Source of the DNA: Hydrolagus affinis | Lineage: Eukaryota | Assembly (NCBI GenBank): GCA_012026655.1 | Contig: JAAILG010000680.1 | Coordinates: forward strand, 1-64,000 | Direction: 5' to 3' | Length of the DNA stretch: 64,000 nucleotides | Shown: positions 43,801 to 46,800 of the stretch, piece after piece | Position numbering within the stretch: position 1 is the stretch's first letter | Layout of the letters: every line of letters begins with the position of its first letter | Made by a program: the position numbers

Positions 43801-46800
43801 TGCTCACATCATCCAGGTTGTGGGGCCGCTTCTCCAACTCTTTGCTCAGCCAGGCAGAGACGTTGGAGGCCATCTCTGGACAAAGTGGACCTACCAAGTC
43901 CTCAATGCGTCCCGACGTGTGGGCGCTGAGGCCGATAAGGAAATGGATAAAGGGGTGGAATGGACAGTGCGAACTCAGTTGATCCAGGAGTGCCTCTACC
44001 GCTGGTGGTTCTGGGGTCAGGTAATGACCAAGTGCGGCCAAGTACTCCTGGAAAGCGAGGCGATGGAGCATGTACACACCGCTCTCTGCCCCCTCATCCA
44101 TCTCAAGGATGTTCATCCCAAGTCCTGAGATGAGGTCCCGGTGGTCCTCAGTGAAGTCAGTGCATGGCTTCCATCCTCCTTCATTCACCGCCCCCGCAGC
44201 TCGGAGCAAAGCCTCCCGCGCGGTCTCCTTCCCTCTGAGGCCTTGGTCATCTTTTAAGACATTGCAAATGAAATTTGAAAAGACCTGCGTAGCTGTTTGC
44301 AGGAGCTGGGGATTGCCCTTCAGTTGGGTGAAGACAGGAGGCAGTGATTTGCAGATAATCCGGTCTCCAGAAGGGTCAAAGCCCATTGTGTAGAGGATAT
44401 CAGTCTCCTTCGCCCGTTTCAATGCCACTAAGTTCTCATCACTGAAATGGCAACTCAGGTGATCCTCTCTACCTTTGTCGAAGAAGATGTCTGCCCACAG
44501 ATCAAGCTGTGCCTGACGCAGAGTCTCCAGGGCTTCTGGTCGGCTTGTGATCAAGACGGAACAGCCTCTCAGCATCGTTCCCCACACTAGACAGTGTACA
44601 ATGTCAGCTACCTCACAGTCCCCCTCAGGACCAGGGAAGTGAGTCTCAGTGCCTGCCTTTCTTTCCTTGTTTCCAAAATCAACCTTCACCTTGAACTGAT
44701 CCAATCCATCGAAGATGAAGAGAAGGTTCTCTGGGGAATCCCACACGTCCTCAAGTTCCTTTCCGAAGTGAGGATAGTAATTGCGGACCATGGTGCTCAA
44801 GTTCGTTTTCCCCTCAATGATATTCAAGTCTTGGAACATGAACCAGAAGACAAAGTGAAACTGGAGATATTTACTCCCTGAGACCCAGTCGTGGACTATT
44901 TTCCTCACCATGGTACTCTTCCCGATTCCTGCCGCCCCACTGACCACTGAAGTCCCCCCTTTGTCTCTGAACAAGCCACCAATTTGCAGTCTTTCGAGCT
45001 CCTCATTGTGTTTCTTCAGGCATTCTTCAACGTCTCTGTAATAATAATTTGAATCAGATCAAAATTAATCCTTGGATCCCAGGATGTCACTGGCTTCCGT
45101 TTTCACACAAAGCACACAATTGCTTCACTTTACAGTAAAATCCTTTGAAGCTCTTTTAGATGGCTCAACAATGTGATAAGGCATTGTATCAAATGCAATA
45201 ATAATGATTCATTTTATTATTATTAAGAATATTATTATTTGATATAACATTTAACATATCATCAAAATGTCTCAAGGGAAGTAAAGTGACTGATTTGTGA
45301 ATACAGCAGCAATTTGTGCACAGCAACTTCCACAGCAACAAACAGCAATGAGGTGAATGGTTGATTTACTCTCAGGAATTGTCAGCCAAGACACTGGGAC
45401 AGAGAAGTTCTTCTCTTTTCCAATAGCATTGCGGGATCTTTAATGTCTACCATACAATACGTCATGCATTTGATACAGCACTTTATCACATCGTTGAGAT
45501 GTCTCAAAGCACTTCACAGAAACATACTGTACTGTAAAGGGTGTGCTTTGTTGGCAAAGTGACTGTAATAATAATGATTTGATATACCTTTTCACGTCTT
45601 CTAGATGTCTCAAAGCGCTTCAGAATATATCTGTATTTAAACACTAATCATAAGGTCAGTGGAAAGCACTGAACACAGAAGGATCTCTAGTTTATGCTTT
45701 TCTGCAGCAAGTCAATTTTTCGTCTCTTGCACAAATACATTTCCTCTTCCTCTTCCTCCCCCTCTCCCCCACCCCCACCAAAAGGGAAAGAAGATGGCAA
45801 CTTGTGTGGACAATGTGACAGTGGAAGGCACACAAAGGTTTCAACTTACATCTGCCACTCCATCTTTGTACACACAGACATGAGGGGATTCAGAACCATC
45901 ACGTTGTCTGATCCCATTAACCAGGCAGATCAGCTGCTGAGTAAGACTTACAGAAACATCTGATCAGTAGTTACCCGCCTTAAAAGCGTGAGACCTGTTT
46001 TTGAATCCAGGCAGATTAGGGCGAAACCTTGGGCAAGTTTCCTTACTTCACACACATGCCTAATAATAATCCCTCCAAACAAAAAATAATAATAAAATTG
46101 GTCATTTCAATCCATGACTGTTTGTGGGACACTGTTGTGCACAATTGGCTGCTGCATTTCGCCCACAAATGTACAGGCATTACAGCATTATAAATTTACA
46201 GTATGTTCTGTGAAGTGCTTTGAGACGTCTAGAAGACTTGAAAAGCGTTATATCAAATGCAAGGATTATTATTATTATTATAACAGTACATTTATAGAAA
46301 ATATTGTAAAGCACCACCTTTGGTTATTGAATGGAATCCCATTCAGTTTATTTTATTTGTATCCATATGTACCACATTTTACACTAGTCATGAGCAACAG
46401 TTCGTTCGGGAGCTTATAGAAATTGATTTCTTATACCTTTATCATGCAGTTCAGAGAGCACGACTACACAAAACCTTAACAAGCAAACAATTCAGTTCAA
46501 TGTTTCATTGGAAGACCACACCTCTGACAATGTGATACTCCCCCAAATACTTCACTTGAACCCATAAACTTCCAAATTAGAGTCAGTGTGAGTGACTGAG
46601 CCAGACTGAGATGATCTTTTCTTTGCTTCACGACTACCCATTCATAACTACCCGAATCTGAGCTCATTCGAAGGTCCACAGTGAGTGTGCTGAGGGCAGA
46701 CTGTTCACCACTCACCTCTCACATTCCGCTCGCAGGCAAACTTTGTGCTGATGATGAATATCTGCATTAAAAAAATTAAAGAAAATATTTACCTAAGACA

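What the first reader, a model, noticed from the sequence alone, without database searches (positions are those of the whole stretch)
44041..44938. NACHT ATPase motifs altered: Walker B DGLDE to DGLDQ and winged-helix His displaced
Seen: Walker A (GAAGIGKST, 44912-44938) and sensor-1 (ITSRP) are intact. Walker B reads LLFIFDGLDQF (CAG codon at 44696-44698). The usual E(I/V)xGF motif reads ADIFF. The FxHLxxQE motif reads YMLHRLAFQEY, with Arg at the conserved His position (44060-44062). Known: NLR Walker B is hhhhDGxDE, acidic-to-amide changes there typically impair hydrolysis, and the winged-helix His holds ADP in the autoinhibited state. Inference: a nucleotide-binding but non-cycling or constitutively open pseudo-ATPase, which fits a headless regulatory NLR.
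Basis: partly seen in the sequence, partly recalled or inferred. Interest (0 to 1): 0.65.

Follow-up and report, generated by a model that had tools for sequence, protein, structure and literature searches.

The report
Chimaera NLR with rewired ATPase motifs
This is an intact innate-immune NLR gene of a chimaera-like cartilaginous fish; its nucleotide-switch motifs differ from its shark relatives in ways that are shared with the elephant shark and kept by selection, so they are real but not unprecedented.

Summary
The minus-strand NACHT exon (45035-43530) keeps Walker A, the Mg-binding Asp, sensor-1 Arg and the adenine-contact Pro. It reads DGLDQ, DI--FF (E to D plus a 2-residue deletion in EIxGF) and Arg at the winged-helix His position, with His one residue upstream.

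These are neither errors nor private changes. A Callorhinchus milii protein (79% identical, gapless over 461 residues) shares all of them. All 26 nearest named relatives have the canonical motifs.

The gene looks functional:
- Seven exons have AG/GT sites, consistent phase and a stop codon.
- Differences between the two chimaera sequences avoid family-conserved sites (8% vs 25.5%, p=0.002).
- Neutral drift to 79% identity left 3 of 1000 simulated frames open.

Published NLRP3 mutants argue against "constitutively open": E306Q gives 0.22x turnover and hyperactivity, while H522R gives 0.86x turnover and weak signalling. A large elasmobranch clade lost the Walker B Glu independently. "Headless" is unproven, because a 5' start exon is still missing.

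The parts
46716..46761 (-). Candidate upstream mini-exon (46 nt), encoding (x)IHHQHKVCLRAECE plus 2 nt. It has no in-frame ATG.
   Evidence: Four relatives hit the same spot weakly in tblastn (best E 0.017). It has an AG acceptor and a GTGAGT donor, and its last 2 nt plus the first base of the NACHT exon make an Arg codon. It aligns to the 'L.DVQ.KHK..L..Q.E.L' stretch of relatives. Support is weak and rests on position, phase and splice sites.
43530..45035 (-). Main exon (1506 nt): tail of the FISNA region, NBD, HD1, WHD, HD2 and the first LRR.
   Evidence: Acceptor AG at 45037-45036 and donor GT at 43529-43528. Pfam NACHT 91.5 bits (cutoff 26.7) and NLRC4_HD2 36.5 bits (cutoff 33.1). Best solved relative is NLRP3, E 1.7e-20.
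44912..44938 (-). Walker A GAAGIGKST, intact.
   Evidence: Lys is present in 181 of 181 family rows and Ser/Thr in 180 of 181.
44831..44833 (-). Gln68 at the position of the NLRP3 Glu-switch Arg (R262).
   Evidence: CAA codon. Family counts are Arg 131 of 187 and Gln 22 of 187; C. milii also has Gln. The NLRP3 numbering comes from PMC9633759 and the alignment.
44696..44710 (-). Extended Walker B DGLDQ: the Mg-binding Asp109 and Asp112 are kept, and Glu is replaced by Gln113.
   Evidence: Shared with C. milii P0002.
44537..44551 (-). Sensor-1 motif ITSRP (Arg165), intact.
   Evidence: Arg is present in 155 of 181 family rows.
44480..44491 (-). DIFF in place of EIxGF: E to D plus a two-residue deletion at the NBD-HD1 junction.
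   Evidence: The Pfam NACHT match stops at profile position 138 of 167.
44360..44383 (-). GFDPSGDR in place of C(Y/F)NPSYCW. The adenine-contact Pro221 is kept; Cys218, Tyr223, Cys224 and Trp225 are lost.
   Evidence: Cys in 142 of 149 rows, Trp in 101 of 149, Pro in 149 of 152. Shared with C. milii.
44060..44065 (-). His324-Arg325. Arg sits at the winged-helix (sensor-2-like) His position and His lies one residue upstream.
   Evidence: One search gives the alternative alignment with a one-residue insertion.
42858..42944 (-). LRR exon a (87 nt).
   Evidence: tblastn with P0002 gives 84% identity. AG/GT sites and matching phase.
42364..42534 (-). LRR exon b (171 nt).
   Evidence: tblastn with P0002 gives 89% identity.
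41048..41218 (-). LRR exon c (171 nt).
40338..40505 (-). LRR exon d (168 nt).
39649..39736 (-). Last coding exon (88 nt), ending in TGA.
   Evidence: Weak tblastn hit. AG acceptor, matching phase and a stop codon. Its sequence resembles the C-terminal ends of P0004 and P0005 as printed.

Best explanation
The window carries an intact, lineage-specific NLR gene of a holocephalan (chimaera-type) cartilaginous fish. It lies just downstream of a sortilin gene and belongs to the chondrichthyan 'NLRP3-like' expansion.

On the stem leading to the window's gene and its Callorhinchus counterpart, the NACHT module was remodelled:
- The residues that bind nucleotide and Mg stayed (Walker A Lys/Ser, Asp109, Asp112, sensor-1 Arg, HD1 Pro).
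- The residues that couple hydrolysis and ADP sensing to the conformational switch changed. The Glu-switch Arg became Gln, the extended Walker B Glu became Gln, and the winged-helix His became Arg.
- Two residues were deleted at the NBD-HD1 junction, the CxxPxYCW motif was lost and the FISNA core is missing.

After that burst the new state was kept by purifying selection.

Inferred, not shown: the protein still binds nucleotide but hydrolyses slowly, with Arg325 acting as a sensor-2-like phosphate contact. It would then act as a long-lived nucleotide-bound scaffold or modulator rather than as a fast-resetting, FISNA-dependent inflammasome sensor.
For: Shown:
- The motif states are in the sequence and are shared with C. 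milii P0002, which is 79% identical and gapless over 461 residues.
- All 26 nearest named relatives are canonical.
- The pair sits on the longest internal branch of the tree: 0.82 substitutions per site in the 28-row tree and 0.75 in the 59-row tree. Its tips are short (0.10-0.16).
- Differences between the window's protein and P0002 are 5 of 62 at family-conserved sites against 73 of 286 at variable sites (Fisher p=0.002, Mann-Whitney p=7e-5).
- 11 of the 13 departures from conserved residues are shared by both sequences.
- In a neutral substitution simulation to 79% identity, 3 of 1000 replicates stayed free of stops, with a mean of 4.76 stops.
- Seven exons have AG/GT sites, consistent phase and a terminal stop.
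- The AlphaFold model aligns over about 480-560 columns to NLR NACHT structures, with the best TM-score to ADP-bound NOD2 at 0.62.
- HD1 is the most diverged domain: 32% identity to sharks, where sharks share 53% with each other. It is modelled at pLDDT 54-67, against 72-93 in the canonical control built from the same alignment rows.

From the literature (passages read):
- NLRP3 E306Q has 0.22x turnover and is hyperactive.
- NLRP3 H522R has 0.86x turnover and signals weakly.
- NLRP3 R262W has 0.53x turnover and gives more specks.
Against: - No biochemical or expression data exist for this gene.
- The 5' start exon was not found, so the N-terminus is unknown.
- Transferring NLRP3 mutant phenotypes to a protein about 20-22% identical in structure alignments is an extrapolation.
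- E306Q keeps residual turnover, and some NLRP3 double or triple Walker B mutants keep 0.35-0.42x.
- A 28-row elasmobranch clade has 25 rows without Glu, so loss of this Glu may be compatible with ordinary NLR function.
- P0002 is a gene model, which is open by construction.
- If the window is itself from C. milii, P0002 is a paralogue rather than an orthologue.
- The low pLDDT of HD1 may only reflect divergence from the alignment.
- dN/dS could not be computed, because no C. milii DNA was available.
Confidence: 0.5

Rival explanations
1. An ordinary, still-cycling NLR ATPase. The Gln is tolerated because Asp112 or another residue activates the water, and Arg325 replaces His as the phosphate sensor. 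On this reading the motif changes are neutral or compensated variation without a change of mechanism.
For: - Gln at this position occurs in 15 of 188 related NACHT rows, and other non-acidic residues occur as well.
- A whole elasmobranch clade lacks the Glu (25 of 28 rows).
- Human NLRs naturally vary here: NLRC4 has NE, NALP11 has DN and NOD5 has EH. NALP6, NALP8, NOD5, CIITA and NAIP lack the His (PMC2323615).
- NLRP3 H522R keeps 0.86x turnover.
Against: - NLRP3 E306Q drops to 0.22x turnover and is strongly hyperactive.
- Here the change coincides with four other changes around the nucleotide pocket, on the longest branch of the tree.
- None of the 104 other family rows that have all three positions aligned combines Gln at the Walker B position with Arg at the His position.
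Confidence: 0.3
2. A decaying or unitary pseudogene. The motif losses, the missing FISNA core, the missing start codon and the short LRR would reflect relaxed constraint.
For: - There is no in-frame ATG before Walker A in either known 5' exon.
- Pfam finds no NOD2_WH or FISNA match, while 8 of 8 canonical relatives tested have NOD2_WH.
- The protein departs at 13 of 67 highly conserved positions, against a family median of 7.5%.
- HD1 has low pLDDT.
Against: - All seven exons are open, with canonical splice sites and matching phase.
- There is no indel against P0002 over 461 residues.
- Differences avoid conserved sites.
- 3 of 1000 neutral replicates stayed open.
- 13 of 67 lies within the family range (90th percentile 20.7%, maximum 27%).
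Confidence: 0.1
3. The protein starts at Met42, just after Walker A, as the C. milii model P0002 does. It would then lack the P-loop and bind no nucleotide, which would make the other motif changes irrelevant.
For: P0002 begins at the equivalent Met. There is no in-frame ATG upstream within the exon.
Against: - The 41 codons before Met42 are open, carry a perfect Walker A and align to shark relatives from residue 12 onward.
- The exon has a good acceptor, and an upstream exon matches it in phase.
- A gene model that starts at the first Met is the usual outcome when 5' exons are missed.
Confidence: 0.07
4. Sequencing or assembly error at the motif codons.
For: None found. Raw reads were not available.
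Against: An independent public protein record shares every change. The changes involve several codons and a 6-nt deletion that keeps the frame.
Confidence: 0.01

Closest known systems
Callorhinchus milii NACHT domain-containing protein A0A4W3IM09 (P0002)
   Same: 79% identical and gapless over 461 residues. It has the same DGLDQ, DIFF, GFDPSGDR and LHRLAF(Q/R)EY states, the same Gln at the Glu-switch position and the same LRR exon order.
   Different: The model starts at the Met after Walker A and ends after two LRR exons, so it is probably incomplete. It has FRE where the window has FQE. Whether it is an orthologue or a paralogue was not settled.
Elasmobranch 'NLRP3-like' NLRs (names given by NCBI), for example Scyliorhinus torazame P0158, Mustelus asterias P0159, Heterodontus francisci P0160 and Heptranchias perlo P0003
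   Same: These are the nearest clade, at 40-43% identity over the whole exon. They share the NBD-HD1-WHD-HD2-LRR order and the same kind of LRR exons.
   Different: All have the canonical DG(L/F)DE, EIxGF, CxNPSYCW and YTFxHLTxQEF motifs. They have a FISNA-like stretch before Walker A and are longer proteins. Pfam finds NOD2_WH in P0003 by my scan and in P0158-P0160 by the precomputed domain lists.
Human NLRP3 and its engineered mutants E306Q, H522R and R262W
   Same: NLRP3 is the best solved-structure match by sequence, E 1.7e-20. The Walker A is nearly the same (GAAGIGKS against GAAGIGKT). The window naturally carries the residues of two tested mutants, Gln for E306 and Arg for H522, and has lost the R262 equivalent.
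   Different: No PYD was found and the FISNA core is missing. HD1 is remodelled and the LRR is much shorter. Foldseek alignments show only about 20-22% identity. Orthology to NLRP3 is not established.
Human NLRs with naturally deviant motifs: NLRX1/NOD5, CIITA, NALP6, NALP8, NAIP, NLRC4, NALP11
   Same: They are precedents for NLRs without the winged-helix His and/or without the DE pair of the extended Walker B (PMC2323615, Table 2 and text passages).
   Different: They belong to different subfamilies. None is reported there with the Gln plus Arg combination. They were not aligned here.
Elasmobranch NLR clade with DDxDQ-type Walker B (Pristis, Mobula, Hypanus, Hemitrygon, Amblyraja and Leucoraja proteins, for example P0035)
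   Same: 25 of 28 rows lack the Glu, often with a non-basic residue at the Glu-switch position.
   Different: It is a separate clade, split from the window's clade by a fully supported branch, so the loss is independent. Most of these rows keep the His and CxNPxFC. The second Walker B residue is Asp, not Gly.

Membership tests
NACHT NTPase / vertebrate NLR | Pfam NACHT match above the gathering score | tested here: met
   91.5 bits against a cutoff of 26.7, but only profile positions 2-138 of 167 are matched.
NACHT NTPase / vertebrate NLR | Walker A GxxxxGK[ST] | tested here: met
   GAAGIGKST at 44938-44912.
NACHT NTPase / vertebrate NLR | Walker B hhhhD (Mg-binding Asp) | tested here: met
   LLFIFD with Asp109. 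Asp is present in 186 of 188 family rows.
NACHT NTPase / vertebrate NLR | Extended Walker B acidic pair DGxDE (PMC2323615, PMC9633759) | tested here: not met
   The motif reads DGLDQ. Asp112 is kept and Glu is replaced by Gln113.
NACHT NTPase / vertebrate NLR | Sensor-1 Arg | tested here: met
   ITSRP with Arg165.
NACHT NTPase / vertebrate NLR | Conserved HD1 Pro facing the adenine (GxP-type; NLRP3 P412) | tested here: met
   Pro221 is an invariant column in the 45-sequence alignment. Pro is present in 149 of 152 family rows.
NACHT NTPase / vertebrate NLR | Winged-helix His in FxHxxQEhxA (sensor-2 substitute) | tested here: not met
   Arg325 is at the aligned position and His324 is adjacent. 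HMMER against NLRP3 offers an alternative with His aligned. Pfam finds no NOD2_WH match.
NACHT NTPase / vertebrate NLR | NBD-HD1-WHD-HD2 fold | tested here: met
   The model has pLDDT 76.7 and pTM 0.62. Foldseek matches NLRP14, NLRP7, NLRP2, NLRP3 and NOD2 over about 480-560 columns, with E down to 8.6e-20. HD1 confidence is low.
NACHT NTPase / vertebrate NLR | C-terminal leucine-rich repeats | tested here: met
   Four LRR exons plus a terminal exon were found by tblastn with relatives. Pfam gave no LRR match for the frame that holds LRR exon b. P0002 has an LRR_6 match over the equivalent region.
NACHT NTPase / vertebrate NLR | ATP binding and hydrolysis | not testable with these tools
   This needs recombinant protein.
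NLRP subfamily (NLRP3-like) | N-terminal pyrin domain | tested here: inconclusive
   - No PYD or other domain was found in ten minus-strand frames of 78 residues or more between 46.9 and 51.3 kb.
- No match to relatives' N-termini was found upstream of the mini-exon.
- The 5' exon or exons are still unidentified.
- Pfam finds no PYD in the eight canonical shark and unnamed relatives scanned either.
NLRP subfamily (NLRP3-like) | FISNA extension directly before the NACHT domain | tested here: not met
   - Pfam finds no FISNA.
- The alignment shows that about 45-50 residues (RYTEL.VIS..R.R..EHEL..RG) are absent between the mini-exon and the main exon.
- No remnant was found in eight frames of the intron.
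NLRP subfamily (NLRP3-like) | Orthology to mammalian NLRP3 | not tested
   The only evidence is NCBI's 'NLRP3-like' names on relatives and the best PDB hit. PMC8455134 (passages) reports NLRP-related, not orthologous, expansions in whale shark.

The most novel reading that the evidence does not exclude
The gene may be a natural 'compensated lock'. A hyperactivating loss of the Walker B Glu and of the Glu-switch Arg would be offset by His-to-Arg at the ADP sensor and by loss of the FISNA core. The result would be a stably nucleotide-bound NLR without its own effector domain that modulates canonical paralogues.

Together with the independent loss of the same Glu in a large ray and shark clade, this would mean that cartilaginous-fish NLRP3-like receptors have repeatedly given up hydrolysis-driven resetting.
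Probability: 0.15. Interest if true: 0.6.

Novelty: new variant of a known kind. Interest (0 to 1): 0.35.

Why it matters
NLRP3-type receptors are thought to need ATP hydrolysis and the winged-helix His to return to, and stay in, the resting state. This gene is a naturally selected protein that carries the very substitutions studied by mutagenesis in human NLRP3 (E306Q and H522R), in combination and stable over evolutionary time.

It therefore offers a simple test of whether the two changes compensate each other. It also shows that motif-based calls of 'dead' NLR ATPases in fish genomes need lineage context: the same Glu is missing from a whole elasmobranch clade. Beyond that, it is one more divergent member of a large, fast-evolving immune gene family.

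Tried and rejected
Names came from the similarity searches instead.
- N-terminal exons: tblastn of 156 relatives against the window found nothing upstream of the NACHT exon at E<=1e-3. phmmer and a profile built from 24 N-termini found nothing significant; the best upstream match was the mini-exon frame at E 0.33.
It was replaced by stop-free frames. These gave no domain between the sortilin gene and the NLR, and no FISNA remnant in the intron.
- Co-variation of the Glu-switch Arg with the Walker B Glu: the raw association was 130/8 against 17/31, Fisher p=5e-16. The 59-row tree needs only 4 changes of the Walker B state and gives 3-4 independent pairs, so there is no power. I do not claim co-evolution.
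- The search for the last sortilin exon (motif EDLLE, recalled from memory) found nothing.
- dN/dS was not possible.
- Rfam gave only two tRNA-like hits far from the gene.
- Sequencing error was rejected as an explanation.
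Full report
**Origin and handling**

I do not take the window for human. Its best protein matches are cartilaginous-fish proteins. The N run at 6304-6403 was left untouched. The gene is spliced, so each exon was translated and searched on its own. The joined coding sequence was never built or searched, and only exon lengths and phases were added up.

**Observation**

The finding lies on the minus strand, in a 603-codon stop-to-stop frame (43247-45058). The exon proper runs from 45035 (acceptor AG at 45037-45036) to 43530 (donor GT at 43529-43528).
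- Walker A GAAGIGKST at 44938-44912.
- DGLDQ with CAG at 44698-44696.
- ITSRP at 44551-44537.
- His324 (CAT, 44065-44063) followed by Arg325 (CGC, 44062-44060).

Pfam finds NACHT (91.5 bits, but only profile positions 2-138 of 167) and NLRC4_HD2 (36.5 bits). It finds no NOD2_WH and no FISNA. The best solved relatives by sequence are NLRP3 chains, at E 1.7e-20.

**Are the changes real and shared?**

The nearest protein in 5.8 billion is Callorhinchus milii A0A4W3IM09 (P0002), at 79% identity. tblastn aligns it to the window over 461 residues without a gap. It has the same DGLDQ, (A/T)DIFF, GFDPSGDR and LHRLAF(Q/R)EY.

The exhaustive representative search found 1382 relatives at E<=1e-3. Nothing lies between 79% and about 45% identity over the full length.

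The next relatives are elasmobranch proteins that NCBI names 'NLRP3-like', at 35-43% identity (Scyliorhinus, Mustelus, Heterodontus, Heptranchias, Hypanus, Hemitrygon, Pristis). Coelacanth, bichir and frog proteins follow. All 26 named relatives (27 NACHT rows) have the Walker B Glu, Ex-xGF, Cys224 and Phe-x-His (counts).

Across all aligned rows of the 155 other proteins (the window's protein and P0002 left out), one search gives:

| Position | Family state | Other states |
|---|---|---|
| Gln113 | Glu 149 of 188 | Gln 15 |
| Arg325 | His 98 of 118 | |
| Asp224 | Cys 142 of 149 | |
| Arg225 | Trp 101 of 149 | |

So the changes are not sequencing errors and not private to this assembly. I could not tell whether the window comes from another chimaera (orthologue) or from C. 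milii itself (paralogue).

- Gln68 sits where NLRP3 has the Glu-switch Arg262. The family has Arg in 131 of 187 rows and Gln in 22, and C. milii also has Gln.
- 'DIFF' is E to D plus a deletion of the two residues xG of EIxGF, at the NBD-HD1 junction.
- The C(Y/F)NPSYCW motif reads GFDPSGDR. The adenine-facing Pro221 is kept.
- The main exon begins in the tail of the FISNA-like region. Relatives carry about 45-50 more residues (RYTEL.VIS..R.R..EHEL..RG) that are absent here.
- HD1 is the most diverged domain. It is 32% identical to five sharks, where sharks of different clades share 53%. The figures for the NBD are 54% against 61%.

**Gene structure**

A 46-nt exon at 46761-46716 (AG acceptor, GTGAGT donor) encodes a stretch that four relatives match weakly at the same relative position (best E 0.017). 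Its phase fits the main exon.

Downstream lie LRR exons of 87, 171, 171 and 168 nt and an 88-nt terminal exon ending in TGA. All have AG/GT sites and one consistent phase.

Neither 5' exon has an in-frame ATG before Walker A, so at least one more 5' exon must exist. A sortilin gene occupies the same strand from beyond 63 kb down to about 51.66 kb. Pfam Sortilin-Vps10 and Sortilin_C matches appear in exon order, and the last four exons were recognised by eye only. This leaves about 4.9 kb for the missing exon or exons. Ten open frames of 78 residues or more in that interval have no Pfam domain, and relatives' N-termini find nothing. 'Headless' is therefore compatible with the data but not shown.

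**Selection**

- Differences between the window's protein and P0002 fall at 5 of 62 family-conserved positions (8%), at 16 of 103 intermediate positions (15.5%) and at 73 of 286 variable positions (25.5%). Fisher p=0.002 and Mann-Whitney p=7e-5.
- The window departs from the consensus at 13 of 67 highly conserved positions. That is high but inside the family range (median 7.5%, 90th percentile 20.7%, maximum 27%). Eleven of the 13 departures are shared with P0002.
- Random substitution of the exon down to 79% protein identity needed about 150 changes and gave a mean of 4.76 stops. Only 3 of 1000 replicates stayed open.
- On the trees the pair sits on the longest internal branch (0.82, 0.75), with short tips (0.10-0.16).

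The picture is a burst of change on the stem followed by conservation. One caveat is that P0002 is a gene model. Another is that no DNA of a second species was available, so dN/dS was not computed.

**Structure**

With a 45-sequence alignment, AlphaFold2 gives mean pLDDT 76.7 and pTM 0.62. The NBD and HD2 are confident, while HD1 (181-250) reaches only 54-67.

A control with the canonical Heptranchias protein (P0003), using the same 45 sequences with P0003 placed first, gives 72-93 for HD1 and pTM 0.76.

Foldseek aligns the window's model to NLR NACHT structures over about 480-560 columns. The best TM-score is to ADP-bound NOD2 (0.62). Closed NLRP3 forms give 0.52-0.56 and the active disc gives 0.45.

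In both models the residue just before the winged-helix helix is the canonical His (P0003 His435) or Arg325 (window).

**Mechanism**

Passages of PMC9633759 give direct comparators in human NLRP3:
- E306Q has 0.22 of wild-type turnover, more ASC specks and extreme cell death.
- H522R has 0.86 turnover, but IL-1beta at 0.07 and specks at 0.26.
- R262W has 0.53 turnover and specks at 1.78.

Passages of PMC2323615 state that the DE pair of the extended Walker B and the winged-helix His vary naturally among human NLRs. NLRC4 has NE, NALP11 has DN and NOD5 has EH. The His is absent from NALP6, NALP8, NOD5, CIITA and NAIP.

The most likely reading is a protein that binds nucleotide, hydrolyses slowly and holds the phosphate through Arg rather than His. 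Without the FISNA core it is unlikely to assemble like NLRP3.

**How unusual is it?**

Loss of the Walker B Glu is not rare in cartilaginous fishes. A separate clade of 28 sampled ray and shark NLRs has 25 rows without Glu (Pristis, Mobula, Hypanus, Hemitrygon, Amblyraja, Leucoraja and others). The loss in the chimaera pair is independent of that clade.

The combination of Gln at the Walker B position with Arg at the His position was seen in none of the 104 other rows that have all three positions aligned.

Literature searches turned up no description of this gene:
- One search used 'elephant shark', NLR, NACHT and 'cartilaginous fish'.
- One search used 'Callorhinchus milii', NLRP3 and NACHT.
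- PMC8455134 (passages) describes NLRP-related expansions in whale shark.
- PMC4852459 (passages) states that in fish NLRs the FISNA, NACHT, winged-helix and superhelical parts share one large exon.

Supplements were closed.

**Verdict**

It is a real, conserved and selected variant of a known receptor family. The functional interpretation is plausible in part, but it is untested and overstated on two points: 'constitutively open' and 'headless'.

Noticed in passing
window 51662-63951, minus strand: A sortilin (SORT1-like) gene lies directly upstream of the NLR on the same strand. Pfam finds exons matching Sortilin-Vps10 positions 233-444 and Sortilin_C positions 2-98 in order (61.1, 59.6, 58.8, 58.2, 57.4 and 55.8 kb). 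The exon at about 60.9-61.1 kb matches human sortilin chains at E 8e-23. The later exons (55.1, 53.9, 52.7 and 51.7 kb: transmembrane segment and tail) and two earlier ones (63.9 and 63.0 kb) were recognised by eye only. The final tail exon was not found.
   Followed up: partly
window 45036-46715, minus strand (intron between the mini-exon and the NACHT exon): In fish NLRs the FISNA and NACHT parts are said to share one exon (PMC4852459). Here an intron of about 1.68 kb separates a short upstream exon from the main exon, and the FISNA core is gone. No FISNA remnant was detected in eight frames of this intron. How the exon was split is unexplained.
   Followed up: partly
P0002 (C. milii A0A4W3IM09): The public model starts at the Met just after Walker A and stops after two LRR exons. 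Judged by the window's gene structure, it is probably truncated at both ends.
   Followed up: partly
Proteins P0035, P0044, P0046, P0067, P0069, P0074, P0181-P0197 and others (rays, sawfish, skates, some sharks): A large elasmobranch NLR clade has a DDxD(Q/K/R/H/L) Walker B (25 of 28 rows lack Glu). Several rows also have a non-His residue at the winged-helix position, and some members lack a Pfam NOD2_WH match. A possibly hydrolysis-poor receptor class in cartilaginous fishes may deserve its own study.
   Followed up: partly
window 43247-43420, minus strand; also 30140-30206 (-) and 35978-36049 (+): A tRNA-like sequence, probably a SINE head, lies in the intron right after the NACHT exon (seen by eye). 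Rfam reports two further tRNA-like matches of 37.1 and 31.5 bits elsewhere.
   Followed up: no
window 46096-46419 (+), 61372-61848 (+), 45443-45619 (-), 51003-51335 (-), 56131-56457 (-), 62323-62526 (-): A dispersed repeat recurs on both strands. Its frames translate to strings such as '...SVKCFETS...[11 protein letters not shown]'. It was not classified.
   Followed up: no
window 24282-24449, minus strand: A weak LRR-like tblastn hit (E 6.7e-4, to P0024) lies about 15 kb downstream of the NLR's stop codon. It could be a fragment of another NLR or a chance match.
   Followed up: no
window 6304-6403: A run of 100 N (assembly gap or masked stretch), left as it is.
   Followed up: no
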